NCBI GenBank assembly: GCA_948614045.1
Contig: CAPFSK010000002.1
Span: 18,404-82,403, forward strand
Direction of reading: 5' to 3'
DNA length: 64,000 bases
Origin: an uncultured Candidatus Saccharibacteria bacterium
Lineage (GTDB): Bacteria > Patescibacteriota > Saccharimonadia > Saccharimonadales > Saccharimonadaceae
The notes under the pieces were generated by a model. It ran no database searches. It was not told the origin of the DNA and saw only the letters and a list, made by a program, of their open reading frames with translations. Position 1 is the stretch's first letter. The number at the start of each line of letters is the position of its first letter. This document shows, in pieces, positions 6,576-57,101 of this stretch. The translations under genes and the position numbers were made by a program.

Positions 6576-8134
6576 TGAAGTTAATCGGTCTTGACGTCGG
6601 CACGAAGCGCATCGGCGTAGCCAAAGCGGATTCGGCGGTCCGCATCGCCGTACCGTATGCCGCCGTTGAGGTCGATGGTACCGAGCTCGACAAAATCGCC
6701 TCGCTTGCTCGAGCTTGGGACATCAATAGCTTCGTTGTTGGTCTGCCGCGTAATAGCCAAGGTCAAGAAACTGAACAAAGTCAATATTCGCGTCAGTTCG
6801 CCGCGGCTTTGAAGCAGGCGATTCCGGGGGCAAAAGTCTGCTTTCAGGATGAATCTTTGACTTCAGTTGAGGCTGAAAAGCGCCTCAAAGGCCGCAAAAA
6901 GGGCTACAAAAAAGGCGATATTGACTCCGAAGCCGCGACGATCATCTTGCAGGATTTCCTCGAAAAACACGCCGGTAAGCCGACTTCTAAGGCCGCCGCC
7001 GCGAAACATAAATCCGTCAAAGGCAAGAAACCTGGCAAATCGCACAAGCTGCTGACCGCTTTCATTGTCATGCTAGTTCTGCTTGGCGCTGCCGCTGGTG
7101 GGGCGTATTACTTCTATCAAGATAATCTTCAACCAGTTTTCACCGACGTTGACTGCAGTGACACTGAAGATGCGTCTTCTAGCGCTTGTAAACCGGTTAA
7201 ATTTGAAGTCAGTGAAGGTATGAGCGTGAATGATATTGCCATGAACCTCAAAAATGCTGGCTTAGTGCGCAATTCCATCGTTTTTCAGGTGTTTTATCGC
7301 CTCAATTACTCTGGTACGGCGCTTCGCCCTGGTGACTACGAATTTACCAAAACTATGCCCCCGAGCGAGATTATCGCCCAAATGATCGGTGGTGGCGATG
7401 CGGTATTTCGGCTCACTTTGCTCCCTGGGGCCACTGTAAGCGATTTTAGCGATACTTTAGTAAAACTAGGCTATGACCAAGGTGATATCGAAAAAGCCCT
7501 AGGAAAGCCTTATACGGGCTCGTACAGCTGGATTTTTGAGGGTAAACCTGATGATGCCGGTCTCGAGGGCTATTTGTACGGCGAAACCTATGAATTTTAC
7601 GCTGACGACACCGTAGAAACGATTATCGAGCAGATTTTGACTGAATTTGCCTCAGTTTTAGAGCAAAACGGCCTGAAAGAGAAATTCGCAGAGCGTGGGT
7701 TCAACCTCTATCAGGGGATTACGCTGGCGTCGGTAGTACAAAAAGAGGCGAATAATGCGATTGATTACGCCAAGGTTGCGCAAGTGTTCTATAACCGCTT
7801 AGGGCAAGATATGAACCTCGGTAGCGATGTGACAGTGAGTTATGCTTGGGACTTATTGCATCCGGACAGAGACGGTACAGAGGTGAGCAATGCCGAAAAA
7901 GTCGAACTGGATTCGCCGTATAATACCCGTAAAAACCCCGGATTACCGTATGGTCCGATCAGCAACCCCGGCATTGAAGCTCTGATTGCGACTGCTACCC
8001 CTGATAGCGAGATGGCAAACTACTTATTCTTCTTGACAGGAGACGACGGTATGATGTATTATAGTACTACAGATGAGGAGCACCAACGGAATATTTCTGA
8101 GCATTGCGCCGAACTCTGTAGCGTTGCCCTGTAG
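6575..8134 (+). CDS. Fusion protein: RuvX/YqgF-like nuclease + TM + MltG/YceG endolytic transglycosylase
   Basis: N-terminus is RuvX-like (LIGLDVGTKRIGVA...FVVGLPRN..G...DESLTS). TM segment FIVMLVLLGAAAGGAYYF. C-terminus is YceG-like (LASVVQKEA...VFYNRL...YNTRKNPGLPYGPISNPG). Confidence 0.85.
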   Translation: MKLIGLDVGTKRIGVAKADSAVRIAVPYAAVEVDGTELDKIASLARAWDINSFVVGLPRNSQGQETEQSQYSRQFAAALKQAIPGAKVCFQDESLTSVEAEKRLKGRKKGYKKGDIDSEAATIILQDFLEKHAGKPTSKAAAAKHKSVKGKKPGKSHKLLTAFIVMLVLLGAAAGGAYYFYQDNLQPVFTDVDCSDTEDASSSACKPVKFEVSEGMSVNDIAMNLKNAGLVRNSIVFQVFYRLNYSGTALRPGDYEFTKTMPPSEIIAQMIGGGDAVFRLTLLPGATVSDFSDTLVKLGYDQGDIEKALGKPYTGSYSWIFEGKPDDAGLEGYLYGETYEFYADDTVETIIEQILTEFASVLEQNGLKEKFAERGFNLYQGITLASVVQKEANNAIDYAKVAQVFYNRLGQDMNLGSDVTVSYAWDLLHPDRDGTEVSNAEKVELDSPYNTRKNPGLPYGPISNPGIEALIATATPDSEMANYLFFLTGDDGMMYYSTTDEEHQRNISEHCAELCSVAL

Positions 8135-9316: not shown

Positions 9317-10735
9317 ATGTTCGTCGATACGGCAAAAGTCAAACTCCAGGCCGGCAAGGGCGGCGACGGCGCAGTGTCGTTTCGCCACGAAATTTATATC
9401 CCGAAAGGCGGTCCGGACGGTGGCGACGGTGGTCGTGGCGGTAGTATTATCTTTCGCGCCGACAAAGATACGAATACCTTGATTGATTTTCGATTCAATC
9501 CCGAGCTGAAAGCCGAGAACGGTAAGAATGGCTCTGGCCAACGTAGCGCTGGCCGAGGAGGAAAGGATTTGATTGTCGAGGTACCAGTTGGTACGGTCGT
9601 GCGCAAGGATGGTGTCGTGCTGGCGGATTTGGCGGTTGATGGACGGGAAGCGGTGATTGCGAAGGGCGGCGACGGTGGCTTTGGTAACGCACACTTCAAG
9701 TCAAGCGTGCGTCAGACGCCGATGATTGCCGAAGTTGGCGAGCCAGGTGATGAGTTCGAGGCGGCACTTGAGCTGAAACTTATCGCCGACGTTGGGCTAG
9801 TCGGGTTGCCAAATGCCGGTAAGTCGACTTTCCTTAGTGTCGTCAGTAACGCTCGCCCGGAGATCGCCGATTATCCCTTTACGACGTTGACACCGCAGCT
9901 TGGTGTTGCGACGGTTGACGACCAAGATATTTTGATTGCTGATATTCCAGGATTGATCGAGGGTGCCGCCGACGGCAAGGGTCTGGGGCATGATTTCCTT
10001 CGCCATGTCGACCGCACGGCGGCATTGTTACATCTCGTTGATGTTTATAATGATGACGCTGGCGAGGCTTATCAGGTGATTCGGAAAGAGCTGGAGCGCT
10101 ACTCTGACTTACGTGACCGTCCAGAGATTGTCGCACTGACGAAATGCGAGGGTGTCGACCAAGATATAGTTGATATGCAGATTGCCAGTATTCTACGGGT
10201 TAATCCTGATGCGAAGGTTTATACGATTTCTTCCGCCGCGAAGCGGGGAATCACGGAAGTGCTGCGTGAGTTGGTGCGAATTAAACGCGAAGCTAAGAGT
10301 CAGCCTACGTCTCCGGATTCATTCGAGATGGGCGATGACGGGGCAGTGACATGCTCAGCCTCTGCGAGGTCATGGAGCTCCGACTCCTCAGGCGGGCGCG
10401 GGTCCGAATCTTTAGATGAGGAGAGCGCCCCCCCGACCGAGTCAGAAGCTGGGCATGTCGTAACTTTGCCTGTTATTTCTCTTTCCTCTGCTCAGCTCAG
10501 TAACGCTTGGAAAGTTGAAAAACTTGAGGACGGCGACGAGGTGAAATTTATCGTCACTGGTCCAAAGATTGAGAAGTTTGCTCGTCGCACGGATTTGAAT
10601 AATTACGCTTCGGTAAACCGCCTACGCGACATTATGAAAAAGCTCGGTATTCGCGCTGAGCTTACGTCACAAGGCGCCGAACCGGAATCAATTATCTCGA
10701 TTGCCGGGAAAGAATTTACGCTAGTAGAAGAATAA
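9317..10735 (+). CDS. obg: GTPase Obg/CgtA with C-terminal OCT domain
   Basis: MFVDTAKVKLQAGKGGDGAVSFRHE...GGPDGGDGGRGGS, G1 GLPNAGKST and G3 DIPGLIEGA. Confidence 0.95.
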   Translation: MFVDTAKVKLQAGKGGDGAVSFRHEIYIPKGGPDGGDGGRGGSIIFRADKDTNTLIDFRFNPELKAENGKNGSGQRSAGRGGKDLIVEVPVGTVVRKDGVVLADLAVDGREAVIAKGGDGGFGNAHFKSSVRQTPMIAEVGEPGDEFEAALELKLIADVGLVGLPNAGKSTFLSVVSNARPEIADYPFTTLTPQLGVATVDDQDILIADIPGLIEGAADGKGLGHDFLRHVDRTAALLHLVDVYNDDAGEAYQVIRKELERYSDLRDRPEIVALTKCEGVDQDIVDMQIASILRVNPDAKVYTISSAAKRGITEVLRELVRIKREAKSQPTSPDSFEMGDDGAVTCSASARSWSSDSSGGRGSESLDEESAPPTESEAGHVVTLPVISLSSAQLSNAWKVEKLEDGDEVKFIVTGPKIEKFARRTDLNNYASVNRLRDIMKKLGIRAELTSQGAEPESIISIAGKEFTLVEE

Positions 10736-10782: not shown

Positions 10783-10811
10783 TTGACAAAAATAGCCAAG
10801 TATGCTACAAT
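10783..10811 (+). promoter_or_regulatory. Consensus sigma70-type promoter, copy 1 of a repeated promoter cassette
   Basis: TTGACA-17 nt-TGcTACAAT. Near-identical cassettes lie at 12889, 17402 and 56340. Confidence 0.75.
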
Positions 10812-10817
10812 GAAAAC

Positions 10818-10931
10818 ATAAGACGAAACTATATGTTTGCGCCACAGGTTTTTCATGTACTTAAGGCGTAAATAAGAGCCTTAAGTATTTTACGAATTTG
10901 TGGTGCTAGATTTTAGGAATGGAGGGATTTT
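10818..10931 (+). ncRNA. Structured 5' leader (copy A), homologous to the leader at 56375-56485
   Basis: Outer helix 10839-10845/10900-10906 encloses a perfect 8-bp hairpin 10860-10867/10878-10885. An SD follows. Confidence 0.5.
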
Positions 10932-11597
10932 ATGACTACGAAGAAATGTTATAAACGAGAATATATTTGCCAAAGCAACGAGTATGCAGATGATCTACAG
11001 TTTGTAACCAAGCATCCTGACGGTTTTACGCCCGGCTTCCCGGATGATCCGAGCCGGAGTAGCTTATCTCAGTTGACTATCAACTCTATTGCCAGACGGA
11101 CGGCAGTTAGATCTAATGGGCTTTCATGTGAAGCTGGTGATTATATACTCCGTGAGTTTTATAAAATTTTGGGAGGTGAGTTTAGTATTTGGCGTATTAT
11201 ATCCATTCAATTGGTGCCAAATTGCGCTAGGCTTAAGCTGGGAACTCCCGATCCGAGAGAAGATCCTTCATTGGGGGAGGATTTAGCTTGCGAGCTATTA
11301 GGCTATGAGTCTATTGTCGTAGATGTTGAAGGCGAAGATACTGCCGAGCATCGTTATCTTGCTGACCAGCAGTCAATTTTATACTTACAGCGTAGAGACG
11401 AGAAGAATCCAAACAAAATTGACTATCTTAAAATTCACGTGTGGCATTATTCTAAACGCACTTCTCTTCGGAGATCTGAGCAGGCATCCATAAGCATAAG
11501 GCACTCCGATCTTCCTGATTATTATTATGCTTATCTATACTGGAAAAGCAGAGATACGAAACGGATTATTGCTGAGATTACAGAAAAGACGCCTTAA
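10932..11597 (+). CDS. Hypothetical protein (orphan, 221 aa)
   Basis: ORF with SD GGAGGG 6 nt upstream, a strong promoter and a downstream terminator. Confidence 0.7.
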   Translation: MTTKKCYKREYICQSNEYADDLQFVTKHPDGFTPGFPDDPSRSSLSQLTINSIARRTAVRSNGLSCEAGDYILREFYKILGGEFSIWRIISIQLVPNCARLKLGTPDPREDPSLGEDLACELLGYESIVVDVEGEDTAEHRYLADQQSILYLQRRDEKNPNKIDYLKIHVWHYSKRTSLRRSEQASISIRHSDLPDYYYAYLYWKSRDTKRIIAEITEKTP

Positions 11598-11643
11598 ATG
11601 TCGCCGCTTATTATTTTTTGCACCACCGCTACCTAGGTAGCAC

Positions 11644-11677
11644 AAAACCGGAACAACATTATCGTTCCGGTTTTTTC
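11644..11677 (+). terminator. Intrinsic terminator
   Basis: CCGGAAC-loop-GTTCCGG followed by TTTTTT. Confidence 0.75.
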
Positions 11678-11697
11678 ATGCCTTTTACTATCCCTCC

Positions 11698-11910
11698 GGC
11701 GCCACCACCATAGTACAGTTACCATTGGCTTTTGTCCGTAGCGGGTGGGCAAAGCTCGATGGCGGCAGCATGCGCGTCGTCGGCCAGTACGGCTACTACT
11801 GGTCTCGTACCTCTATATCTACTACTAACGCCTACGTCCTGTACATCAACCCTACAGGCGTCAACCCGTCAGGCAACGGCAATCGTTTCGTCGGTCTCCC
11901 CTCCGCTGCC
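11698..11910 (+). pseudogene. FISUMP/DUF1566-like C-terminal cassette C1 (no ATG or SD, tail replaced by the inverted flank of C2)
   Basis: Encodes GATTIVQLPLAFVRSG...GYYWSRT...NAYVLY...PSGNGNRFVGLP. Only a TTG start, directly after the terminator. C-run of 4. Confidence 0.6.
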
Positions 11911-11928
11911 GTACTTCCTCTTCCTCCA

Positions 11929-12195
11929 TTAGGCACTACCTGGGTAGAGGCAGCGGAGGGGGAAACCGTCATTTCGCATGTTACCGTTTGATGGATGAAT
12001 GACAGTAGGATCCGTATACAAATACCAGGCAAGAGTAGATGAAACTGCTGTACGCGCCCAACTATAAGCACCGCGTATATTACCAACATTCCCATAGTCT
12101 AAATAGACATACCCGCTACGGACAAAAGTGAGTGGTAAAATGTTGTGATTATAACAACGCACATTTCCACAGTAATAACAGAGGAGATATGGCAT
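11929..12195 (-). CDS. FISUMP/DUF1566-like mini-protein, cassette C2 (88 aa, the only fully intact copy)
   Basis: ATG start. LTFVRSG...YSWARTAVSSTLAWYLY...PSNGNMRNDGFPLRCLYPGSA* with a C-run of 5. Confidence 0.6.
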   Translation of the reverse strand: MPYLLCYYCGNVRCYNHNILPLTFVRSGYVYLDYGNVGNIRGAYSWARTAVSSTLAWYLYTDPTVIHPSNGNMRNDGFPLRCLYPGSA

Positions 12196-12888: not shown

Positions 12889-12917
12889 TTGACAAAAATA
12901 CAAATCTGTGCTACAAT
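12889..12917 (+). promoter_or_regulatory. Promoter cassette copy 2
   Basis: TATTGACAAAAATAC...TGTGCTACAATG with a 17-nt spacer. Confidence 0.75.
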
Positions 12918-12981
12918 GTAAGTATGTAGTGAAAAACTCACTACAGATTAAGAATTAGACTTTTCGTAAAGAGTATCGGAC

Positions 12982-13059
12982 AAAACCCGTATACGGGTTT
13001 TACTGTTGAAGAACAGTAAAACCCGTATACGGGTTTTACTGTTGAAGAACAGTAAAACC
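12982..13059 (+). repeat. 36-bp tandem repeat (2.2 copies), each unit made of two perfect hairpins, in a long 5' leader
   Basis: AAAACCCGTATACGGGTTTT + ACTGTTGAAGAACAGT, repeated at 12982-13017 and 13018-13053, plus a partial unit. Confidence 0.9.
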
Positions 13060-13202
13060 TTACGCTAGAAGTCTACGCCCTTTGACATAATGACTTGCTA
13101 GACGTATTCTCGCCTTACTTGCCTATTCGCGCAGCGACACAGTAGGCAGCTAGGGCGGAAATACCAGTTTCTCCCAAAAAACAAAATAGAGGAGGTAGCA
13201 AC

Positions 13203-14192
13203 ATGGAAGCTACATTATCATTTATTCAGGAATTGAGCGAGAAAATTACAGAGTTAATCGGTTTTCATCTCGGTGCAGACCATATCCATTATATCGGGGA
13301 AGACGGCACGGGCTGGCATTATTATATCCAGGCTTTGCAACCGGGCTACCCGGTACTCGCGATGCATTATCGTGGACCGCTGATGCTGGCGTTGCCTTTT
13401 GCAGATTACTGCAAGCTGGAAGCTGGCGAGATCACGGTCGACGCATACATTGCGCAGTCGCACTGGAACTATGGCTATTACTGGGGTGGCGGCGGACTGC
13501 TAAGCGGTGCTTACTGGCAACCATTGGAGGCAGAAACCGGCATTCATGATACTGAGCGTATCAGCCGTTATCTGCAGATCTTGAGTTGTCGTACGTTTCG
13601 TCGTTCCAGCGGGCATATACCGAGTATTGAGAATTGCGCGAAGTGTCAGCTCGATGAGACAGGCTGCCCGTTTTCGCCGCAGAACCAGACTGGTTCATGG
13701 GACAACGAGGTCGCAGAGCCGGACGGTCGGGTGGAATTATTCCAGGCAGTTTGTGAACGCGTGCAGCAGGAGCTCGGCTTTGAGCGCTACGACTTCATGT
13801 CACATAATGAATCTAAGCATGAGCTTTTGCTCTTCCCGGGCATGAAGCCGAACACTGTACGGATTTTCCTTAGCCGGGATTTGCTTAACGATCTGCTTTA
13901 TCATCCGGAGGTGAAACGCGACTGGAAAGAGATGGCGGCGCGCCTTGACATTGCCTTGGCGATGCCGTTCCATCCGGAGCAGCGCACAATGCTTGACCTG
14001 AATGCTCCTGACTTACGCGCGGCCTGCCTTGATTTTTGGGGCGACAATATGTTGCAGAAGGTAGGCTCTGCTGAAGCTGCTGCTATGCAGACTGCACGGG
14101 TCGATCACGGGTTCATTACCCCGCGTGGAATTAAAATCCTGACAACCCTTAATAAGGCTTTCAATAAGGTCATTGATAAAGCTCGTGGCTAA
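13203..14192 (+). CDS. Hypothetical protein (orphan, 329 aa)
   Basis: ORF with SD AGAGGAGG, about 285 nt downstream of promoter copy 2. Confidence 0.7.
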   Translation: MEATLSFIQELSEKITELIGFHLGADHIHYIGEDGTGWHYYIQALQPGYPVLAMHYRGPLMLALPFADYCKLEAGEITVDAYIAQSHWNYGYYWGGGGLLSGAYWQPLEAETGIHDTERISRYLQILSCRTFRRSSGHIPSIENCAKCQLDETGCPFSPQNQTGSWDNEVAEPDGRVELFQAVCERVQQELGFERYDFMSHNESKHELLLFPGMKPNTVRIFLSRDLLNDLLYHPEVKRDWKEMAARLDIALAMPFHPEQRTMLDLNAPDLRAACLDFWGDNMLQKVGSAEAAAMQTARVDHGFITPRGIKILTTLNKAFNKVIDKARG

Positions 14193-24254: not shown

Positions 24255-24339
24255 GCCCGTGTGGTGAAATTGGTATACACGTATGCCTTAGGAGCATATG
24301 CCGCAAGGCGTGCTGGTTCAAGTCCAGTCGCGGGCACCA
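24255..24339 (+). tRNA. tRNA-Leu (anticodon UAG), long variable arm, CCA encoded
   Basis: Acceptor GCCCGTG/CGCGGGC, anticodon loop CTTAGGA, variable arm GCCGCAAGGCGT, T-arm GCTGGTTCAAGTCCAGT. TGCTATAAT promoter at 24237-24245. Confidence 0.9.
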
Positions 24340-25898
24340 TCAATGAATTCCTTGCCTTTGAGCAAGGTAGCAAAAGGCTCTTTCCAGAGGAAATGAGGCC
24401 TTTTTTCATCGTCAATTTCGAGGTTCAAGACGCATTTTCGAGTAAGCATGTCTTTTTCGGCTACACCAGCATTTCTTATCTGTTGCGGAAGGTTTTTAAG
24501 CAGGTTCAAGAACTCATCTTTAGAAACTATGGCTTGTTGGTATTTCTCGATATTGCCATCAATCTTCGAAAGTTCTGTCTCGATGTTTGCTAGGTCAGTT
24601 TCCAAAGACGCTAACTTATTCTGGGCGAGCTCACGGGGCTTCGAGCCAACTTGTAAGCTTGGCATTACGTTAAAAGAAATATGGTTTATTTCTGACGTTA
24701 GGTGAGATTTTCTACCTTGTAGACTACGGCGGTCAGTTCTCAACTGGACGACTTTCTCATCCGACCGTTTACCAAACTGCTTGCTATATGCTTTGTATTC
24801 TTTCTCCGTAAACTTTACGCTGTCTAGAGCTCTGTATAGAACGTTAAATATCGCCTCTGCACGTATGCTCTTTTGTGTTCTGGTACACTCCTTGTTGTCG
24901 CATCTATAATATAGATACCTTTCCTTACTGTGCGACCGACTAGCTCCAGGATACATTACATGCCCACAAACACCGCAACGCACCATGCCTCTTAAAGGAT
25001 AAAATGTAGCACGATTCTTCTTACTGGTTTTACCGGTCTTTCCATGAGGATTATCCGCAACAATAGCCTGAACTTTGTTGTATTCTTCCTCCGTCACCAT
25101 TGGCTTGAAATCATCAATTACTTTCCTTAAGTCCACCTCTTGGTCTGCTTGGACTAGCACTCCATAGTAAAATGAATCTTTGAAGATATTTGTCGGAGTA
25201 TTTATACTTGGCTTTATTGCTCGCGGAGTTTTATTCTTCCTATTAACCTTTGTCATCTTTTCCATTCCACTTTGTAGCCAGTAATCCAAAATCTCCTTAT
25301 TGCCCGCACCTTCTAACTTCATCTCCCAACCCTTACGGACTAAATCAAAGTTACTATCGGGTTCATAAAACCCTTGTAAGTTGCGATTATAGCCCCATTT
25401 TGGAGTGCCAGAGGACTTACCTTCTGGCAGTCTATTATCATTAGCACGTAACACACCTTCAGAAATATGCTCGGAGTATTGTTTAGCTAGAGCAAATAGG
25501 ATGTTCAACATAAGCTTACCACTACTATCATTCTCAAATCGACAAAACGGGAACTTCATGTCCTTAATGATTTCCTTGTCATACATGTCCATGATGGTAC
25601 CAGACTCTAGTGAGTTGCGAGAGAGCCTATCAGGATGCCATGCAATAATACCATCATAGATACCGTTTTCGATATCTTGTATCATCTCCATAAATGCTGG
25701 TCTGTTCTTGGGTGTTTTGGCAGACTTTTCTTCACGTATGACCTTAACAATCTTTAGTCCCTCACGCTTTGCTAGAGCCTTACAGTCCTTTATCTGGTCT
25801 TCAATGGAATGCTCTTGACTACCTTTATCTTCTGTAGATTTCCTCGCATACAGGACATAGTTCAGTTTAGATACATCTATCTCCTTTTTGCGTGCCAT
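24318..25898 (-). CDS. Large serine recombinase (integrase)
   Basis: N-terminal resolvase domain YARKSTEDKGS...HPDRLSRN, recombinase domain, zinc ribbon CGVCGH...YYRCDNKEC, and a coiled-coil tail. Confidence 0.9.
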   Translation of the reverse strand: MARKKEIDVSKLNYVLYARKSTEDKGSQEHSIEDQIKDCKALAKREGLKIVKVIREEKSAKTPKNRPAFMEMIQDIENGIYDGIIAWHPDRLSRNSLESGTIMDMYDKEIIKDMKFPFCRFENDSSGKLMLNILFALAKQYSEHISEGVLRANDNRLPEGKSSGTPKWGYNRNLQGFYEPDSNFDLVRKGWEMKLEGAGNKEILDYWLQSGMEKMTKVNRKNKTPRAIKPSINTPTNIFKDSFYYGVLVQADQEVDLRKVIDDFKPMVTEEEYNKVQAIVADNPHGKTGKTSKKNRATFYPLRGMVRCGVCGHVMYPGASRSHSKERYLYYRCDNKECTRTQKSIRAEAIFNVLYRALDSVKFTEKEYKAYSKQFGKRSDEKVVQLRTDRRSLQGRKSHLTSEINHISFNVMPSLQVGSKPRELAQNKLASLETDLANIETELSKIDGNIEKYQQAIVSKDEFLNLLKNLPQQIRNAGVAEKDMLTRKCVLNLEIDDEKRPHFLWKEPFATLLKGKEFIDGARDWT

Positions 25899-25927
25899 AG
25901 ATGTATTATATCATATTACCCCTGTTA

Positions 25928-26149
25928 TTAGAACTTAATCATACCTCCTCTATTATCACTCATAGTAGTTGCTGTATCAAACTTCGCCCATTCTGGATTG
26001 GGGCACGGTGTATTTTGCAGGTGTTTCAGGCAGTGGACTAGAGCAACCAGATTGTCGCCAGCCTCATCCTCTTTGGACCGTAAAGCGAGCACTAGCCGAC
26101 TATCACTATCATCAGGCTTCAAAATCAAACCATTCTGATTAGTCTTCAT
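25928..26149 (-). CDS. Hypothetical small protein (73 aa)
   Basis: ORF in the same orientation as, and tightly spaced with, the integrase operon. Confidence 0.45.
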   Translation of the reverse strand: MKTNQNGLILKPDDSDSRLVLALRSKEDEAGDNLVALVHCLKHLQNTPCPNPEWAKFDTATTMSDNRGGMIKF

Positions 26150-26253
26150 CAGCTAGTGCCTCCGTGTTTATGTTAGTTTTTGTTTTATACTGACATTATC
26201 TCGTAAGACACCAAAAAGTTCTTCACCCGTGAGGGGGATATTTGGGGGATGTT

Positions 26254-26868
26254 TTATTCTATATCGAGTCTATAAGCGGTTGGGTTTGTCCGGACCCTGT
26301 TGACGTGCTTATGGCCATCTCCGTAGTATGGAGCTAGAGCTTCATCAAGTTTGCATTTATGCCTAGATACAGTAGCGACGTTATCGTCACCCCATATCCT
26401 TGCTATCTCCACCATCGTCAGAACATGCTCATCATTCAATAGGAATGCTACTAGGACTTCCCGGAGTTTACCACCAAAGGCTATTTCCTTATCGCGAAAC
26501 AGAATACGTCCACCAACCAGTAGCTCATAATCACCAAGTTTCGTAGGCTGATGTCTAGACTGTGCGGAGCGATTGATAGACTTGAGATGATATAGTTGCC
26601 CTCGCATATCAACAATTAACCCGATATAGTGCCTCAAATAGTCACCACAATTATCTGGAGTTAGTTCACCAAACGTATTGCCAGCAATTAGTCTAGCGTG
26701 TAAATCTAACTGGTCGGTGCCCAGAACTAGCGTATCTAGTTCCTGTTTCCAAGAAGATATGTCATCAACAGTTAGGGGCAGAGTTTGAGCTTTAACCGAC
26801 AGCCTACCTAGACTTTTAGCTATTTCTTCTAAATGCTCCAATTCTTCTGTTGTATCGCCCCGAATCAT
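26254..26868 (-). CDS. Putative DNA-binding regulator with OmpR/PhoB-like winged-helix C-terminus
   Basis: The C-terminus resembles trans_reg_C: LREVLVAFLLNDEHVLTMVEIARIWGDD...VSRHKCKLDEAL...AYRLD. Confidence 0.55.
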   Translation of the reverse strand: MIRGDTTEELEHLEEIAKSLGRLSVKAQTLPLTVDDISSWKQELDTLVLGTDQLDLHARLIAGNTFGELTPDNCGDYLRHYIGLIVDMRGQLYHLKSINRSAQSRHQPTKLGDYELLVGGRILFRDKEIAFGGKLREVLVAFLLNDEHVLTMVEIARIWGDDNVATVSRHKCKLDEALAPYYGDGHKHVNRVRTNPTAYRLDIE

Positions 26869-26925
26869 GGGTATATTATAACAGATGTAGTCGTCGATTA
26901 GTATTGAGGGGTGCCGTATTATATA

Positions 26926-28356
26926 CTACTGCTCATCTAATTCGGCTAGTTGACGCAAAAGTTCCGCCCTGCGTTGCTCCTTATAATCGTCAACAACCGT
27001 TTCAGGTATATCTAGCGTGCTTTGGTGTCGGTTCATAAACCCAGCAACGTCCTGATTGACGATAATATCTTCTCTACTAATCGGTCGAGTGAGATATAGA
27101 CTGTCCAAAGAAACACAACGGGAAACCGCCACATAAGTCTGACCCGAGCTAAATGCTCCTCCCTCTAAATTTACCTCTACTGATTTGTAGGTTTGACCCT
27201 GTGCCTTATGAATGGTTAATGCCCATGCCAAACGTAATGGAAATTGCGTGAAAGTAGCAACAGTCCGAGCTACCAATTTTTTAGTATTGGCATTATACTC
27301 ATAAACTTTCTTCTCCCAAGTAGCACGGTCAATGCGGTATTCGACTTTGTTAATCATAACTTTCACCATATCCTGCGATAGCTCCGATACAACCCCAATA
27401 GTGCCGTTCACCCAGCGTCTACCCCGATTGGTTCCGTATGTAGCCTCATCACCCTCTGTATCGTTCTTCAACATCATAACTTGAGCACCAACTTTTAGGT
27501 GTAGCTCCACTTCGGTTGGAGTACCAAACTTGGAAAAATCACCAGTAATACTTGCTTGATAAGTGTATTCTGGTCGTCCAATTTGATTTAATCTTTCTTG
27601 ATTAATTCTTGAAACTGTTTCGTTGCGAGGACTGAGGACTATGGCTCGATTATGGTCATCGCGTGGGGCAGTGCCAGAACAATGGTTGAGAACATCCAAC
27701 TCGTTGTCAGTAATACGGCCCTCCCGCATGTCGTTTAGAATACTGATAAAACCGGGATCCTTTTGCCGAAAAACACGTTTAAGTTCATAGACTGGCAGTG
27801 GTGCCCTATCAAATACTGGTGCATTAAAGAAAAACACACCACCATACTTATCCGTCAAATATCTATCTACTTGCGGCTCAACGACTGGTGGTAGTTGATA
27901 TAAATCTCCGAACATAAGGACTTGTTTTCCACCAAACGGCAATGTATTGTTGTTGGCAAGCTGCAATTTAAGGTCAATGGCCGACATAACATCCACTCTC
28001 ACCATTGAGACCTCGTCTATGATGAGAACATCAATAGATTTCAAAATCTCCTGACGTTTACCCCATACACCCTTGCGTTTGATTTCTTCAAGGTTTTGAA
28101 CATTAATATCTAGCCCGAAGAATGAATGCATTGTTTGGCCGCCAACATTTAGTGCTGATATCCCAGTTGGGGCAACTTTTACCACGTTCTTATGTGTATT
28201 CTTAACAAAATACTCTAGCAAAAAGGACTTACCGGAACCAGCTCGACCAGTTATATACATGGTTTCATTGGCTCTCTCCATACGATTAAAAATGCGAATT
28301 TTCTCCTCGTTTGGTAGTTCGTTATTGCTCTTCGTCACCGGTTTAAGGAGTGCCAT
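26926..28356 (-). CDS. Pif1/RecD-like SF1 helicase
   Basis: Walker A GRAGSGKS, Walker B LIIDEVSMV, FGDLYQLPPV, and the C-terminal TIHKAQGQTY motif. Confidence 0.85.
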   Translation of the reverse strand: MALLKPVTKSNNELPNEEKIRIFNRMERANETMYITGRAGSGKSFLLEYFVKNTHKNVVKVAPTGISALNVGGQTMHSFFGLDINVQNLEEIKRKGVWGKRQEILKSIDVLIIDEVSMVRVDVMSAIDLKLQLANNNTLPFGGKQVLMFGDLYQLPPVVEPQVDRYLTDKYGGVFFFNAPVFDRAPLPVYELKRVFRQKDPGFISILNDMREGRITDNELDVLNHCSGTAPRDDHNRAIVLSPRNETVSRINQERLNQIGRPEYTYQASITGDFSKFGTPTEVELHLKVGAQVMMLKNDTEGDEATYGTNRGRRWVNGTIGVVSELSQDMVKVMINKVEYRIDRATWEKKVYEYNANTKKLVARTVATFTQFPLRLAWALTIHKAQGQTYKSVEVNLEGGAFSSGQTYVAVSRCVSLDSLYLTRPISREDIIVNQDVAGFMNRHQSTLDIPETVVDDYKEQRRAELLRQLAELDEQ

Positions 28357-28361
28357 CTTAA

Positions 28362-28790
28362 TTACTCCTTATCACTATCATCTAATAGCCCCACCTGATT
28401 AACGGCAGCCTTACTCTTCGTCGTCCGTCTAGGCTTCTTTGGTGTAGCTTTAGATTCATTTTTAAGTTGAGGACGAGCGACTACTTCTGATGCTGATGGG
28501 TTTAATTGAGTAATAGGTTCGGGCTGGGACGACTCCTGTGCTACGATAGGTGTATCATAGTCGTCATCAGCATTAATAGTTCCTGACTCTTGCCGTAATA
28601 CCTCCTTATAGGCAAGATTACTCAACGCATAGGCAGTCTGTCGAGTTTCCTCTAGACTAGTAGTTAATTCCGCCAAGCTAGAGCTTATACCTTTGATTAG
28701 TTCATGGTATGAAGCAATTTTTTGCTCAAGTGTTTGAATACTATTGCTCATTTGTTCCCAACGGCTAGCATCGTTACCGGTCAGTTCCAT
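28362..28790 (-). CDS. Hypothetical coiled-coil protein with basic tail
   Basis: First gene of the leftward operon. Helical N-terminus and K/R-rich C-terminus. Confidence 0.55.
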   Translation of the reverse strand: MELTGNDASRWEQMSNSIQTLEQKIASYHELIKGISSSLAELTTSLEETRQTAYALSNLAYKEVLRQESGTINADDDYDTPIVAQESSQPEPITQLNPSASEVVARPQLKNESKATPKKPRRTTKSKAAVNQVGLLDDSDKE

Positions 28791-28831
28791 AAGACTCCTT
28801 TTACATAAATATTATTGTGGTGACAATTAAA

Positions 28832-28951
28832 AAGGACACCACGAGAGGTGTCTTACTTCCTACATCACACCTAGACACAAAGTGTCCTGGTGTTCTACAT
28901 GGTGTCCTGTAAATGGGCACCTTGTGTATCAGATGTGATGTATTAAGTAAG
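28832..28951. promoter_or_regulatory. Iteron/operator cluster
   Basis: Palindrome AGGACACC-n5-AGGTGTCT (28833-28853). A 21-bp imperfect IR (28851-28871 / 28930-28951) brackets direct repeats GTGTCCTG, GTGTTCTA, GGTGTCCTG and GGGCACCT. Confidence 0.55.
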
Positions 28952-29739
28952 ACATCTATATTATACCATACGAACCCAATTCATCAAACAGAAACCGCCC
29001 TGCGGACGGTTCGCTGGCAGACCTAACGGTCGCCATCGGGGACACTAATTAGCGTACATGATAGATTCACCAGACAAATACTCTAGCTACTATCATCAAA
29101 AGAAAAATAATAATTCATGCGAGCGATACTGTCATTTGATATAATTCACCAATACTATAAAACGAACACCTATATCACTTTTACAGAGGTATATACTTTG
29201 ATGAGTCCTTATTTCTCTATATAGACTATATTGAGTAAGAACCCAATCATTTCCTATAATTCCCCCGCAAAATACCGCCTCAAAACGCCCGTTTTAGGCT
29301 GATTCTACAGTGTAATGGTCTGACTTTAAGACACTCTCATTGTCGAGATGATACTTATACCGTCTTCGATATTATGTTGCCGATTTCTCACTGGTGTCGG
29401 TGCGATTCAGAGCTAAAACAGTATAATGAATGTCTTTGTCTCTCCTTGAGTTCCTACCCACTTCCGATTGGTGGTGAGCTCCAGTAGAGCAGAGAACTCG
29501 GCGGGGAGGGGTTTAGCTAATATCATCAAGATAAAACATCAAAAGACTAAAGGACTACATATAAATCATGCGAATAGTAGTATCTAAACCTCCTCTATTC
29601 CGTAAGGGCAAGCCTACTCCATATTCATCAAGCTAGACCGACAAGGGGGCTCTGGAGGGGGTAGCTAAAGTAAGCAACCAACTATTCTCTTAACAGCTCC
29701 GCTGTCTGTCTATGAGTATTAAATAAAAGGAGCATAACT

Positions 29740-30030
29740 ATGAGCAATGCTGAAGAGTTACGAACTATACTAACAAGAATCATCAAAAACAACAAGCTAT
29801 ATGGATGTAGTTTTACCTATGGAGTAGCTTTGCGTATGGGTATAGTAAACCAACTATTTCCCGACGAATTAGACCAACTGATTACCGATACGATTGAAGA
29901 CATCTATAAGGACACTCTGGACGTGATGGGCGACGCGGGTATGCGTGTCGATACTGTTGCTATAGCCCACGTCATTGATATAGCAGTGCTAGACGAGATA
30001 GCTCGACATCTTATTGACGAGGAAGATTAG
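29740..30030 (+). CDS. Hypothetical acidic small protein (96 aa)
   Basis: ORF with SD AAAGGAG. Confidence 0.55.
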   Translation: MSNAEELRTILTRIIKNNKLYGCSFTYGVALRMGIVNQLFPDELDQLITDTIEDIYKDTLDVMGDAGMRVDTVAIAHVIDIAVLDEIARHLIDEED

Positions 30031-30127
30031 CTACCAGGTAGGAGGAGTCATTGCGACTTCTCCTCTTTTTATGTCACCAATACAAAGCCCTTCGGGCTCT
30101 GCCTACAGCCTCCGCTGGTGAGAATAG

Positions 30128-30907
30128 CTACCTGCTGTTGATTTTGTTCAACTTCTTGGAATTTTCTTCTCTTCGCCGTTGCCGTATTTGTTCGTGCAAC
30201 TTGTCCTCCAAAATCGTATCGATAGCATCTTGCAATACAAGGTATTGCTTTTCACACTCTCCCTCACTCAACTCGTGTATACCGCTACTCAAAAGTTTAT
30301 AGAGAACACTAAATCCAGTGTCTTTCAAATACTCATCGAATACGCCTTTTTCGACAAGTTCTTTTACCCTGTCTGACATATACTGTTTTGGTTCAGTAAT
30401 GTCAGCTTGAGTTTCTGCTTGTTTGACGAGCGACTCAAAGACACGCCGTAAGTAGTTAAAAGCAGCAATGTATAGACCTGAATAATAAGCTTTAGCGGCA
30501 TTAAGTCTATACTCTTTATCGCCTTTGGAGAGTAGCTTAATAGCGTCACTATTTACGCTCACGTCAAATTGAGTGGCATCTGGATATTGACCAATCTTAA
30601 CTAGACGAGAATTGGGCATAGCTTCCAAAATAATCTCAACGCTTTTACCACACGTGCATGCGAATTTTATACGCTTAATGGAATTATCAAATACAATGTT
30701 TTTATTAGATGTCGATAACTTTATAGCTACGTCTTGAGTATCCGTGTAATGAATCGCTATAAAGCCACGTTCTCCGCCGCAGTTCGGGCAAAAGAGGGTG
30801 GTTTGTTGGCCTTTGCTAGATAAGAAATCACCTCTAGTCTTGTCGTCATTGAATTTGTATTCAAACCCAATCGGTTTCGGGATAAAATCTGCAAGTTCTA
30901 TCGTCAT
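30128..30907 (-). CDS. Zinc-ribbon + DUF4145-like protein (possible defence/abortive-infection cargo)
   Basis: CPNCGG...CTCG ribbon. C-terminal helical region LNAAKAYYSGLYIAAFNYLRRVFESLV resembles DUF4145. TGTTATAAT and an SD lie upstream. Confidence 0.6.
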   Translation of the reverse strand: MTIELADFIPKPIGFEYKFNDDKTRGDFLSSKGQQTTLFCPNCGGERGFIAIHYTDTQDVAIKLSTSNKNIVFDNSIKRIKFACTCGKSVEIILEAMPNSRLVKIGQYPDATQFDVSVNSDAIKLLSKGDKEYRLNAAKAYYSGLYIAAFNYLRRVFESLVKQAETQADITEPKQYMSDRVKELVEKGVFDEYLKDTGFSVLYKLLSSGIHELSEGECEKQYLVLQDAIDTILEDKLHEQIRQRRREENSKKLNKINSR

Positions 30908-31122
30908 CAGTTAAGCTCCTTTGTCTAAATTATAACACTTCGAGTAATAGGTTCAAAAGTTTTCTGGTAGTTCTCCTACAACTTGTATTCCTCTTGATGT
31001 CTTAAGATTGCCAATATCTCTTGCGTGACCGATTCGGGCTCCAATAGCTGAATACTATCATCTTGTGCCAGGTATTCTACAAGATAATCGTAATGTTCAA
31101 GCAAGTTCACACTCGGGGCACC

Positions 31123-31159
31123 AGACCAAGAAAATGTATTTTTTACATTTTCTTGGTCT
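31123..31159 (+). terminator. Perfect 16-bp hairpin, terminator-like
   Basis: AGACCAAGAAAATGTA-ttttt-TACATTTTCTTGGTCT followed by a T-rich tract. Confidence 0.5.
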
Positions 31160-31433
31160 TATTTGTTTCCCGCGACTGAAGTGAACCGCATTTTACGCCA
31201 GTAAAATCGGTTCATAATGAGGAGGAGCATGAGGAAAGCTAAAATTTATTTTAGCTTTCTGAGTCGACGACGAAATGCTGCGCGTTAGCGCAGGTTCCAG
31301 TCGCGACAACAACTATTTTTGTGTCAGGGAAAATTGCCTGTCCAATCGCGAAATTAATATATGGATCTAGCTTACAAAAATCCAATTTTTCTAACCTAAC
31401 TTTTGCTAACTACCTCTGTTAAGAATAGCTTCG

Positions 31434-31465
31434 GACGTTAAAATTTTTAGAAAAATTTTAACGTC
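31434..31465. promoter_or_regulatory. Perfect 15-bp inverted repeat (operator-like) upstream of cassette C7
   Basis: GACGTTAAAATTTTT-ag-AAAAATTTTAACGTC. Confidence 0.5.
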
Positions 31466-56339: not shown

Positions 56340-56368
56340 TTGACTTTTTAGCCAAAGTATGCTACAAT
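56340..56368 (+). promoter_or_regulatory. Promoter cassette copy 4
   Basis: TATTGACTTTTTAGCC...TATGCTACAATG with a 17-nt spacer. Confidence 0.75.
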
Positions 56369-56374: not shown

Positions 56375-56485
56375 GTAAGATGCTATTAAATCAGCGTCAC
56401 GGGCTCTATCTAACCTAAGGCGCAAGTTCGCATCTTAGGCATTTTATGAGTTTGTGGCACTGCATACTTTTAGGAGGGAATTAGT
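56375..56485 (+). ncRNA. Structured 5' leader (copy B), homologous to 10818-10931
   Basis: Outer helix 56394-56400/56454-56460 and inner hairpin 56414-56419/56434-56439, then SD TAGGAGGG. Confidence 0.5.
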
Positions 56486-57043
56486 ATGAGAAAAAGAAGA
56501 AATATGGCAATTATTGTCGGAGTATTCACGTTATTTTTGGTAATCGTAGTAGGCTTAATGAATGATCCCGCATGGGTGAAAAAAGAGACACTCCAAACTT
56601 GCGAGTATACGACCATTGAGCCAGGTGGAGATGAGCTACACTTCTTTATGGAGCGCTACTCCTGTCCTAGTGCTGAATGTTTCCCGCAGAGTTGGGATGG
56701 CATGACGTTTCGGCACACCCATTTTACGGTAACTATGAGGCATGCTGATATGGATGGCGATCCAATTGATACCATTAAACGTGAGTTTGTCCACATCGAG
56801 GGGCGTGACCTTATTATAGGAGAGGATCTTACGCCAGTCGATTTAATAAATTTAGTCTTAAGTGAATACGGTAAGCAGGAAGGAGAAAAAGACCCCGTAA
56901 ATAGAGGAAAAGTATCTTCCGCTGACTTGCCTAGATGGGGTGATACGGTAACTGATGTCTATTATATGCCCTATAATCCGAAGGATGACCCCACAAATAA
57001 GCCGGGATATAACCCTGGCTTAGGGCGCAACGGTGACCAATAA
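56486..57043 (+). CDS. Hypothetical membrane-anchored/secreted protein (orphan, 185 aa)
   Basis: N-terminal TM segment MAIIVGVFTLFLVIVVGLM, an SD, and a downstream terminator. Confidence 0.7.
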   Translation: MRKRRNMAIIVGVFTLFLVIVVGLMNDPAWVKKETLQTCEYTTIEPGGDELHFFMERYSCPSAECFPQSWDGMTFRHTHFTVTMRHADMDGDPIDTIKREFVHIEGRDLIIGEDLTPVDLINLVLSEYGKQEGEKDPVNRGKVSSADLPRWGDTVTDVYYMPYNPKDDPTNKPGYNPGLGRNGDQ

Positions 57044-57072
57044 TAGCCCCAAGAAAGGTGTCACTTTCTCAA

Positions 57073-57101
57073 CCGCTCAAGATTCGTCTTGGGCGGTTTT
57101 T
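57073..57101 (+). terminator. Intrinsic terminator
   Basis: CCGCTCAAGA-ttcg-TCTTGGGCGG followed by TTTTT. Confidence 0.75.

What the first reader, a model, noticed from the sequence alone, without database searches (positions are those of the whole stretch)
10818..10931. Conserved structured 5' leader shared by two unlinked orphan genes, with compensatory base changes
The leaders downstream of promoter copies 1 and 4 (10818-10931 and 56375-56485) align at roughly 70% by eye, although the ORFs they precede are unrelated. Both can form the same two nested helices. The outer helix is GCGCCAC/GTGGTGC (10839-45/10900-06) versus GCGTCAC/GTGGCAC (56394-400/56454-60). Here a G-U pair becomes G-C, a C-G pair becomes U-G, and the second copy has one mismatch. 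The inner hairpin is CTTAAGGC/GCCTTAAG (10860-67/10878-85) versus CCTAAG/CTTAGG (56414-19/56434-39). Here a T-A pair is replaced by C-G at the aligned position. The conserved single-stranded stretch (T/C)ATTTTA(C/T)GA(A/G)TTTGTGG links the inner hairpin to the 3' strand of the outer helix, shortly before the SD. This behaves like a cis-regulatory RNA (riboswitch or protein-binding leader) that I cannot assign to any known class.
Basis: seen in the sequence. Interest (0 to 1): 0.65.

Follow-up and report, generated by a model that had tools for sequence, protein, structure and literature searches.

The report
Shared hairpin leader on swappable gene cassettes
A family of unrelated, strain-variable small genes in mouse-gut Saccharibacteria (tiny epibiotic bacteria) all start with the same promoter and a conserved about 70-base RNA hairpin, and each carries a matching short sequence after its stop codon. 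It is a new, lineage-specific leader RNA of unknown function, not a recognisable riboswitch.

Summary
Both leaders (10816-10934, 56373-56488) lie where stated, align at 64% (0/2000 shuffles) and fold into one bipartite hairpin.

The window is a Saccharibacteria (TM7) chromosome from rodent gut. The leader is a multi-copy family. A third copy lies about 3.1 kb upstream of the window and a fourth type precedes a membrane protein. Diverged copies precede homologues of the 221-aa protein that are only 31-43% identical. All keep the architecture, and the + strand always folds 1.5-12 kcal/mol better than the - strand. Covariation is modest (7 double-change cells, 2/500 shuffles). Metatranscriptome contigs carry hairpin and ORF on one RNA. 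Rfam has no match, there is no terminator, and the SD is free.

Two things are new. Whole units, or only the ORF with its terminator, swap between three chromosomal sites behind this module. Each cassette's 3' UTR also carries a short element complementary to, and covarying with, its own leader's 3' helix strand.

Best reading: an RNA-level post-transcriptional element in a reusable promoter-leader module. A riboswitch is unlikely and the mechanism is untested.

The parts
10783..10811 (+). Promoter of copy 1: -35 TTGACA, 17-nt spacer with TG, -10 TACAAT
   Evidence: Consensus scan gives 11/12 with an extended -10. The same promoter type occurs 5 times in the window.
10816..10838 (+). Unpaired 5' start of leader 1 (ACAUAAGACGAAACUAUAUGUUU). 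The TSS is predicted at about 10817-10818.
   Evidence: UAAG is invariant in all copies. In three metatranscriptomes, contigs of a paralogue stop 10-19 nt short of the equivalent point and none enters the promoter.
10839..10851 (+). Outer helix, 5' strand (GCGCCACAGGUUU)
   Evidence: MFE and RNAalifold. Across copies this strand varies mostly by wobble-compatible changes.
10857..10888 (+). Inner hairpin: 11 bp (GUACUUAAGGC / GCCUUAAGUAU) with a 10-nt loop. It is flanked by the internal loop UUCAU (10852-56) and UUUAC (10889-93).
   Evidence: Loop length varies 6-11 nt among copies.
10894..10906 (+). Outer helix, 3' strand (GAAUUUGUGGUGC). It is the most conserved part of the family.
   Evidence: In isolate and metagenome assemblies, depth here is about 5-10x the flanks.
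10921..10926 (+). Shine-Dalgarno GGAGGG of the 221-aa ORF, unpaired in the MFE fold
10932..11597 (+). ORF p221: small protein family without known domain or fold match
   Evidence: Only distant homologues at 27-43% identity. AF2 gives pLDDT 79.7 and pTM 0.82. No Foldseek, Pfam, PDB, PADLOC or PHROGs hit.
11620..11626 (+). 3' UTR element GCACCAC, the exact complement of the leader's GUGGUGC (10900-06)
   Evidence: One of only 2 + strand occurrences in 64 kb. The gene's own 3' UTR ranks 1/49 among window genes for duplex energy. 72/2000 shuffles do as well.
11648..11676 (+). Intrinsic terminator of the p221 cassette (CCGGAAC-9 nt-GUUCCGG + U6). The unit that moves between loci ends at 11680.
   Evidence: Read from the sequence. 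Homology to the relocated copy in L113 ends at 11680. The automatic scan missed it because its loop limit is 8 nt.
56340..56368 (+). Promoter of copy 4: TTGACT, 17-nt spacer with TG, TACAAT
   Evidence: 10/12, TG
56394..56406 (+). Outer helix, 5' strand of copy 4 (GCGUCACGGGCUC)
56414..56439 (+). Inner hairpin of copy 4 (CCUAAGG..UCUUAGG, plus 2 bp)
56448..56460 (+). Outer helix, 3' strand of copy 4 (GAGUUUGUGGCAC)
56473..56478 (+). Shine-Dalgarno GGAGGG of the 185-aa ORF
56486..57043 (+). ORF p185: orphan protein with an N-terminal hydrophobic segment
   Evidence: the only homologue cluster is 99% identical
57058..57070 (+). 3' UTR element GUGUCACUUUCUC. It pairs with copy 4's own 3' strand (7 bp + 3 bp) and covaries with it.
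   Evidence: GTGTCAC occurs once on the + strand of the window, here. Own 3' UTR ranks 1/49. 38/2000 shuffles do as well.
57071..57101 (+). Intrinsic terminator of the p185 cassette

Best explanation
The window comes from a rodent-gut Saccharibacteria chromosome. The finding is one member of a lineage-specific, multi-copy expression module. The module consists of a consensus sigma-70 promoter, about 22 unpaired nucleotides, a bipartite RNA hairpin of about 70 nt (13-bp outer helix, asymmetric internal loop, roughly 11-bp inner hairpin), about 15 nt of spacer and a strong SD. It heads monocistronic cassettes, each with its own terminator, that encode unrelated, strain-variable small proteins.

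Shown here:
- The hairpin is conserved on the transcribed strand only.
- It is kept through wobble and some compensatory changes over deep divergence of the downstream protein.
- It is present on mRNA in vivo.
- Whole units, or only the ORF with its terminator, are exchanged between at least three chromosomal sites behind this module.
- Each cassette's 3' UTR carries a short element complementary to its own leader's 3' helix strand.

Inferred:
- The hairpin acts after transcription as a recognition element made of double-stranded RNA. The most likely roles are a processing or stability site of the RNase III-substrate type, or the binding site of a dedicated protein. Either would give all cassettes a common expression behaviour.
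- The invariant 3' strand can alternatively pair with the 3' UTR element, either in cis (5'-3' UTR contact) or in trans (a 3' UTR-derived RNA).
- The near-identical module also serves as the homology block through which ORFs are swapped.

It is not a metabolite riboswitch.
For: Family and structure:
- Copies are c1 and c4 in the window, c0 about 3.1 kb upstream of the window (L077 6428-6546), a fourth type in L091, and orthologues in L010, L014, L111, L112, L113 and L118.
- Diverged copies sit in front of p221 homologues of 31-43% identity: L128, L129, L130, L132.
- RNAalifold returns both helices.
- 90-92.5% of pair cells are standard pairs, against 31-50% when the partner is slid.
- On 13 distinct sequences there are 7 double-change cells (2/500 shuffles) and a covariation score of 0.209 against 0.174 (1/500).
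- One outer-helix pair takes G-U, U-A, C-G and G-C in different copies.

RNA rather than DNA:
- The + strand is 6-12 kcal/mol more stable than the - strand in 14 of 15 folded copies; the exception is L132, with 1.5 kcal/mol.
- The loop varies 6-11 nt, which is incompatible with a fixed-spacing operator.

Transcription:
- Metatranscriptome contigs X51 (156-469), X52 (281-468) and X37 (363-477) of L091 carry hairpin and ORF together and stop before the promoter. p195-type and p221-type leader-ORF junctions are also present as RNA.

No riboswitch platform:
- No terminator lies in either leader, the SD is free or nearly so, and there is no Rfam hit.

Swapping:
- p221 lies after obg in the window, between tgt and the exo/endo-phosphatase gene in L113, and its homologue lies between dnaE and eno in L128.
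- L112 and L128 share promoter and leader (82%), but homology stops at the ATG.

3' UTR element.
Against: - Covariation is weak. Only 4 of 24 pairs show double changes, and most sequences are close relatives. The tool itself warns that related sequences can beat the shuffles without any structure. The alignment used was fitted to the model.
- The leader diverges slightly faster than the ORF (78-96% against 85-97%), so constraint is moderate.
- The near-identity of c0 and c1 could reflect recent duplication or gene conversion rather than selection.
- There is no direct evidence for cleavage, protein binding or any regulatory effect.
- About 22 unpaired nucleotides precede the hairpin, which argues against a simple 5'-end stabiliser.
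- The 3' UTR complementarity is short (6-12 bp) and would have to compete with a local 13-bp helix.
- In L113 the 3' UTR element carries a 2-nt deletion.
- RNA evidence comes from assembled contigs of low depth (about 3-4x), not from mapped 5' ends.
Confidence: 0.5

Rival explanations
1. Passive duplicated or 'mobile' promoter region. The promoter-leader block is conserved only because it was recently copied or homogenised by gene conversion in front of different ORFs. The hairpin has no function of its own.
For: c0 and c1 differ at 2 of 119 positions within one genome, although their orthologues in other species differ more. Homologous upstream regions before non-homologous genes are common in prokaryotes (PMC3575422). 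The leader evolves somewhat faster than the ORF.
Against: The architecture persists in front of p221 homologues of only 31-43% protein identity. Changes there are mostly pair-preserving and there are four pair types at one position. There is a consistent + strand advantage. A covarying partner element sits in the 3' UTR.
Confidence: 0.2
2. DNA-level element. The imperfect palindrome is a recombination site (attC-like or att core), a MITE remnant, or the operator of a dimeric repressor. Under this reading the helix 5'-strand copy after the stop codon is a recombination scar.
For: Cassettes move between loci. A direct repeat of the helix 5' strand flanks the ORF. An IS200-like Y1 transposase occupies the c0 site in one strain (L081). 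The reverse strand also scores with the model because the element is palindromic.
Against: The observed junctions lie in the promoter or at the ATG on the left, and after the terminator on the right. They do not lie in the helix or at the repeat. Five G-U pairs in copy 1 become A-C mismatches on the other strand. There is no target-site duplication, and context and orientation are always the same. Variable loop length changes the half-site spacing. No tyrosine integrase is adjacent; the nearest recombinase is a serine recombinase 13 kb away that belongs to a tRNA-linked island.
Confidence: 0.12
3. Metabolite- or ion-sensing riboswitch that controls the downstream ORFs.
For: It is a conserved structured 5' leader with an internal loop whose 3' side (AUUUUAYG) is conserved between c1 and c4. 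It has no known class.
Against: It is a single bipartite hairpin without junction or pseudoknot. The terminal loop is not conserved. There is no terminator or SD-sequestering alternative. The downstream genes are unrelated proteins of unknown function.
Confidence: 0.05
4. Autoregulatory operator. The p221-family protein, the oldest partner of the leader, binds the hairpin and represses its own mRNA and those of the other cassettes that captured the module.
For: The leader accompanies four p221-family members at 31-43% protein identity. A fifth (P0010, L131) has a contig that starts inside the leader. Other ORF types share the leader only within the narrow clade.
Against: The AF2 model (pLDDT 79.7) has no match to any RNA-binding fold. 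The most distant member, P0013 (27% identity), lacks the leader. There is no experimental support.
Confidence: 0.1

Closest known systems
Putative mobile promoters / promoter reuse in prokaryotes (Matus-Garcia, Nijveen and van Passel 2012; PMC3575422)
   Same: Highly similar upstream non-coding regions sit in front of non-homologous genes within one genome. Some of those described carry RNA motifs. The mobilisation mechanism is unknown.
   Different: Here the shared block extends through a structured 5' UTR to the SD and is conserved across species with pair-preserving changes. It is coupled to a complementary 3' UTR element. The ORFs, rather than the promoters, appear to be what moves.
RNase III processing hairpins in phage T7 and lambda leaders (for example T7 R1.1); own knowledge
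   Same: Two coaxial helices of about 10-13 bp are separated by an asymmetric internal loop, giving about 24 bp of dsRNA. They lie upstream of an SD in an mRNA leader, and many unrelated genes carry the same kind of signal.
   Different: Cleavage has not been shown. The element is at the 5' end of monocistronic mRNAs rather than between cistrons. Whether the genome encodes an rnc gene was not examined.
5' UTR-3' UTR base pairing in icaR mRNA of Staphylococcus aureus (Ruiz de los Mozos et al. 2013); own knowledge
   Same: A short 3' UTR motif upstream of the terminator is complementary to a 5' UTR segment of the same mRNA.
   Different: In icaR the 3' UTR motif pairs with the SD itself. Here it pairs with the 3' strand of a leader hairpin about 15 nt upstream of the SD and must compete with a local helix. 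It recurs on several unrelated mRNAs.
Transcribed intergenic repeats that form RNA hairpins (pneumococcal BOX, enterobacterial ERIC, Neisseria Correia elements; cited in PMC3575422)
   Same: These are multi-copy imperfect palindromes found in 5' UTRs. They can carry promoters and alter mRNA stability.
   Different: Those elements insert in either orientation at varied distances, with terminal repeats and target duplications. This element always has the same orientation and fixed spacing to promoter and SD, and has no target duplication.
Integron gene cassettes with attC sites; own knowledge
   Same: Promoterless or variable ORFs are exchanged at defined sites marked by structure-conserved, strand-specific imperfect palindromes.
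   Different: attC lies 3' of the ORF, has RYYYAAC/GTTRRRY cores and needs IntI. Here the palindrome is 5' of the ORF and transcribed, lacks those cores, has no integrase nearby, and the junctions fall outside it.

Membership tests
Any Rfam 15 family | Score at or above the family's gathering threshold | tested here: not met
   Only a tRNA passes in the whole window. In permissive mode, the hits on both leaders are chance hits far below threshold (MIR3932 23.6 against 150 bits; IsrR; STnc150).
Riboswitch (generic) | Aptamer with conserved unpaired nucleotides in a junction, pseudoknot or loops | tested here: not met
   It is a single bipartite hairpin. The terminal loop varies in sequence and length. 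The most conserved nucleotides lie in the helix strands.
Riboswitch (generic) | Expression platform: terminator/antiterminator or SD sequestration | tested here: not met
   No terminator-like site in either leader. The SD is unpaired or only marginally paired in the MFE folds.
Riboswitch (generic) | Association with genes of one coherent pathway | tested here: not met
   The downstream proteins p221, p185, p195 and a membrane protein are mutually unrelated and lack known domains.
T-box leader | Stem I with specifier loop, plus a T-box antiterminator competing with a terminator | tested here: not met
   No Rfam T-box hit and no terminator. The GUGGUGC/GCACCAC resemblance to a tRNA 3' end is only a recalled lead.
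Putative mobile promoter (PMC3575422 definition) | At least 80% identity over at least 50 nt upstream of non-paralogous genes in one genome | tested here: met
   c0 and c1 are identical except for 2 positions over the 119-nt leader and share the -10 region, with unrelated ORFs. c1 against c4 is only 64% and would not qualify.
MITE / Correia / ERIC-type repeat | Terminal inverted repeats with target-site duplication; insertion in either orientation at varied positions | tested here: not met
   The outer helix could pass as terminal repeats. However, no duplication flanks it, and all 13 distinct copies have the same orientation and spacing to promoter and SD.
Integron attC | Position 3' of the cassette ORF; R''/R' cores RYYYAAC...GTTRRRY; nearby intI | tested here: not met
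   The element is 5' of the ORF and the helix ends are GCGCCAC...GTGGTGC. Swap junctions lie outside it. No tyrosine integrase was seen in the called genes within about 10 kb.
RNase III substrate hairpin | At least about 20 bp of coaxial dsRNA, often with an internal loop at the cleavage site | tested here: met
   13 bp + internal loop + 11 bp in c1; comparable in all copies.
RNase III substrate hairpin | Specific cleavage by RNase III in vitro or in vivo | not testable with these tools
   Only assembled contigs of metatranscriptomes are available, so no 5'-end mapping is possible.
icaR-type 5'-3' UTR interaction | 3' UTR motif complementary to the 5' UTR of the same mRNA | tested here: met
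   The duplex with the gene's own 3' UTR ranks 1/49 for both window copies. Shuffle p values are 0.0005-0.036 for four cassettes. There are compensatory differences between c1, c4 and L132.
icaR-type 5'-3' UTR interaction | The pairing covers the SD and blocks translation | tested here: not met
   The complementary segment is the helix 3' strand, 15-20 nt upstream of the SD.

The most novel reading that the evidence does not exclude
The leader hairpin and the matching 3' UTR element form a three-part RNA switch shared by a set of exchangeable accessory-gene cassettes. The invariant 3' strand pairs either with the local 5' strand or with the 3' UTR copy. The 3' UTR copy could act in cis, closing the mRNA into a loop, or in trans, as a 3' UTR-derived small RNA released from any cassette. 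All cassettes would then be cross-regulated as one post-transcriptional regulon. This would be a previously undescribed regulatory architecture in the reduced genomes of candidate-phyla-radiation bacteria, and it would travel with the cassettes.
Probability: 0.2. Interest if true: 0.75.

Novelty: new variant of a known kind. Interest (0 to 1): 0.58.

Why it matters
Saccharibacteria and other candidate-phyla-radiation bacteria have tiny genomes full of proteins of unknown function, and almost nothing is known about their gene regulation. A conserved RNA leader that marks a set of strain-variable, exchangeable genes gives a practical handle on them. It defines a candidate regulon of accessory proteins that may mediate host or epibiont interaction. 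It also offers a natural "landing pad" and expression module for genetic work in these organisms. Finally, it is a compact case in which promoter reuse, cassette exchange and possible 5'-3' UTR communication can be studied together. If the hairpin proves functionless, the finding is still a clear example of promoter-leader reuse.

Tried and rejected
- **Rfam:** gathering mode and permissive mode gave nothing.
- **Leader peptide:** c1 has the small ORF ATG-TTT-GCG...TAA (10833-10871). The ATG is absent in c4 and L111 and there is no SD, so this was rejected.
- **Attenuator:** no T-run follows the hairpin, and L010 breaks even the 4-U stretch.
- **Pattern scan of genome contigs (ATTTTAYGARTTTGTGGYRC):** 12 of 14 hits were chance hits in unrelated phyla and only L010 and L014 were true. 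The source species itself was not returned.
- **Viral contig scan:** 62 hits, and none matched the leader beyond the motif.
- **Metagenome scan:** 1 true hit of 22 (L091).
- **Covariance model R1:** no further copies in the window or in about 400 kb of related loci.
- **att-core model** (helix 5' strand and 3' UTR copy as attL/attR): rejected because the swap junctions lie elsewhere.
- **Function of the cargo proteins:** Pfam, NCBIfam, PADLOC, PHROGs, PDB sequence search, and AF2 with Foldseek all gave nothing.
- **T-box idea:** the GUGGUGC resemblance to a partner for a tRNA 3' end is not supported.
- **Isolate-labelled 'RNA?' runs (X25-X35):** these behave like DNA, with even depth across intergenic regions, so they gave copy-number hints but no expression data.

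Full report
**1. What the window is**

The window is ordinary bacterial chromosome. It carries obg (9317-10735), tgt (54913-56355, minus strand), trmD, recG and ABC transporters. The exact sequence is held by mouse and rat gut samples. It lies on contig CATLDX010000001.1 of assembly GCA_949916095.1.

The closest named relatives are two MAGs titled "uncultured Candidatus Saccharibacteria bacterium". They carry an almost identical copy of the leader and a syntenic neighbourhood (L010, L014). That the window is a Saccharibacteria (TM7) genome is therefore an inference from these relatives.

**2. Check of the observation**

The two leaders are 64% identical in a global alignment, and 0 of 2000 shuffles reach that score. 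The downstream ORFs are unrelated.

Both leaders fold into the same shape, with MFE -36.3 kcal/mol (z = -5.5) and -30.6 kcal/mol (z = -2.65).
- The outer helix is 13 bp (10839-10851 with 10894-10906; 56394-56406 with 56448-56460).
- An asymmetric internal loop follows.
- The inner hairpin is 11 bp in copy 1 (10857-10867 with 10878-10888).

The promoter similarity is not specific to this family. The same extended-minus-10 consensus promoter occurs five times in the window, three times with other leaders.

**3. It is a family**

- Assembly depth over 10886-10913 is about 5-10 times that of the flanks in isolate-labelled and metagenomic runs. Alternative contigs continue into other start codons.
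- A third copy (c0) lies about 3.1 kb upstream of the window's first base, in front of a 195-aa ORF (L077 6428-6546). It differs from copy 1 at 2 of 119 positions, although the ORFs are unrelated.
- A fourth type precedes a membrane protein (L091).
- Orthologues of c0 were recovered with the ORF at 83-96% protein identity (L010, L014, L111, L112, L118).
- The 221-aa protein is not a pure orphan. An exhaustive HMMER search found six homologues of 27-43% identity.
  - Four of them (31-43% identical) carry a recognisable, more diverged leader: L128, L129, L130 and L132, scoring 84.8, 78.4, 62.2 and 22 bits.
  - For one further homologue (P0010, L131) the contig starts inside the leader.
  - The most distant homologue (P0013, 27%) has a different leader.
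- No further copy exists in the window.

**4. Is the structure conserved?**

- RNAalifold recovers both helices on nine sequences.
- On the model-guided alignment of 13 distinct sequences, 90% of pair cells are standard pairs, against 33-50% when partners are slid by 1-3 columns.
- In that alignment 14 of 24 pairs vary on one side only and 4 show double changes (7 cells; 2/500 shuffles). The covariation score is 0.209 against 0.174 (1/500).
- One outer-helix pair is G-U in most copies, U-A in L130, C-G in L129 and G-C in L132.
- Each diverged copy folds on its own into the same architecture, sometimes with a bulge.

These figures are suggestive, not decisive. The sequences are related, the alignment was fitted to the model, and the tool warns that such shuffles can be beaten without structure.

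Independent support comes from strand asymmetry. In all 15 folded copies the transcribed strand folds better than its complement, by 6-12 kcal/mol in 14 of them and by 1.5 kcal/mol in L132. This is because several pairs are G-U. The terminal loop varies from 6 to 11 nt. That fits an RNA hairpin and not a fixed-spacing DNA operator.

The leader evolves a little faster than the ORF but much slower than the DNA upstream of the promoter.

**5. Transcription**

In three metatranscriptomes, contigs of the L091-type cassette carry the whole hairpin joined to the ORF. They end 10-19 nt short of the predicted start and none enters the promoter. Contigs with p195-type and p221-type leader-ORF junctions are also present (also for X37). 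Depth is low and these are assemblies, so the 5' end is not mapped.

**6. What it is not**

- No Rfam family matches.
- No terminator-like site lies in either leader.
- The SD is free or nearly so.
- The small ORF inside copy 1 is not conserved.
- The cargo proteins have no domain, defence, phage or structural match, even with a fairly confident AF2 model of p221 (pLDDT 79.7, pTM 0.82).

A metabolite riboswitch is therefore unlikely.

**7. Cassette exchange**

- The 221-aa gene lies downstream of obg in the window.
- In L113, L114 and L117 a 95%-identical copy lies between tgt and the exo/endo-phosphatase gene, exactly where the window has the 185-aa gene. There, homology to the window's copy-1 unit runs from the minus-10 region (10797) to just past the terminator (11680). 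The minus-35 and spacer are those of the tgt site.
- A 43%-identical homologue lies between dnaE and eno (L128), where the window genome has p195. L112 and L128 share promoter and leader (82%), but homology stops at the ATG and resumes in eno.
- Other strains have, at these sites, a different ORF with the same promoter type but no hairpin (L078/L079), an IS200-like transposase (L081), or an extra orphan elsewhere (L121).

Two kinds of unit are therefore exchanged between at least three sites: complete transcription units, and ORF-plus-terminator blocks behind a resident leader. The junctions do not fall in the hairpin, which argues against an att-like role. Use of the near-identical module as a homology arm is an inference.

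**8. A matching 3' UTR element (not in the original finding)**

Within about 25 nt after the stop codon, and before its own terminator, each cassette has a short sequence complementary to the 3' strand of its own outer helix:
- GCACCAC at 11620-11626 for copy 1.
- GUGUCACUUUCUC at 57058-57070 for copy 4.
- UAGCACCACAAA for c0 (12 bp).
- CACCACAAGU for L132 (10 bp).
- Variants in L112, L128 and L131.

The element follows the leader's differences. UG to CA in copy 4 is matched by CA to UG, and UUUG to CUUG in L132 is matched by CAAA to CAAG.

For both window copies the gene's own 3' UTR gives the best duplex among 49 window genes. Shuffle tests give p = 0.036, 0.019, 0.0005 and 0.002 for four cassettes. 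GTGTCAC occurs only once on the window's + strand, at this place.

Five orphan genes without the leader lack the motif. The sixth, p227 in L078, carries CCACCAC about 50 nt after its stop, possibly a remnant of a p221-type 3' UTR. The L113 copy has a 2-nt deletion in the motif.

The element is also a diverged copy of the helix 5' strand. DNA-level homogenisation could therefore mimic covariation.

**9. Interpretation**

The best-supported reading is an RNA-level, cis-acting leader element that belongs to a reusable promoter-leader-SD module for accessory cassettes. Its shape, about 24 bp of coaxial helix with an internal loop, is that of an RNase III-type or protein-recognised hairpin.

The invariance of the 3' strand and its second partner in the 3' UTR suggest alternative pairing, in cis or through a 3' UTR-derived RNA. 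These mechanistic steps are inferred and none is shown.

The main rival is passive promoter-leader reuse (PMC3575422) with a hairpin of no consequence. DNA-level roles and a riboswitch are less likely.

**10. Verdict**

This is a real, previously undescribed leader RNA family restricted to a clade of gut Saccharibacteria. Structural conservation is moderately supported and the genomic behaviour is unusual. The function is unknown.

Noticed in passing
window 11620-11626 and 57058-57070 (also L077 about 7129-7140, L132 about 1637-1646): Each leader-bearing cassette has a short element in its 3' UTR that is complementary to, and covaries with, the 3' strand of its own leader helix. The P0013 gene and four other orphan genes without the leader lack it; p227 in L078 carries a CCACCAC.
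   Followed up: partly
window 10797-11680 versus L113 9865-10745; window 56373-57101; L112 versus L128: The same orphan gene occupies different chromosomal sites in related strains (after obg, between tgt and the exo/endo-phosphatase gene, between dnaE and eno). Either the whole transcription unit or only the ORF with its terminator is exchanged.
   Followed up: partly
window 10913 joined to 11626 (run X27): One metagenome contig joins the end of the leader hairpin directly to the p221-type 3' UTR hairpin and terminator, skipping the SD, the ORF and the GCACCAC element. It may be an ORF-less version of the cassette. The evidence is thin: only 24 nt lie on one side of the joint.
   Followed up: no
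window 11692-11746 and 11896-11969: Two short segments just downstream of the p221 cassette have assembly depths 100-300 times the flanks in gut metagenomes and many different continuations. The region reads in one frame like a degenerate GYYWS-type (Fibrobacter paralogous domain-like) repeat, but Pfam gave no hit.
   Followed up: partly
window 12921-13200: The ORF at 13203-14192 has the same promoter type (12889-12917) but a 280-nt leader of another kind. That leader contains a perfect 36-nt tandem repeat (12982-13059, 2.2 copies), and each unit holds a hairpin AAAACCCGUAUACGGGUUUU.
   Followed up: no
window 24255-32000: A tRNA with a long variable arm (24255-24336) is followed by a large serine recombinase (24318-25898, minus strand) and a PIF1-type helicase (26926-28356, minus strand), in a stretch of lower G+C (0.41-0.43 against about 0.48). 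This is probably an integrated mobile element.
   Followed up: partly
L081 134-586: In one strain an IS200/IS605-type Y1 transposase with flanking hairpins sits at the dnaE-eno site in place of the p195 cassette. Its right junction is at the same flank (TTTACGCGTGC).
   Followed up: no
L131 947-1603 and L132 132-641: Two distant p221-family genes each have a NYN-domain (PIN-like RNase) gene as immediate neighbour, but on opposite sides. This may be coincidence.
   Followed up: no
L121 4900-5515 (equivalent to window about 1805-1847): Several strains carry an extra 163-aa orphan gene, with the same promoter type and yet another leader, between the pilM-like gene and the pseudouridine synthase gene. 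The window has only about 40 nt there.
   Followed up: no
window 57058-57852: The mechanical ORF starting at GTG 57058 overextends the exo/endo-phosphatase gene. The p185 terminator (57071-57101) and a TGTTACAAT promoter precede the ATG at 57122, which other assemblies use as the start (249 aa).
   Followed up: partly
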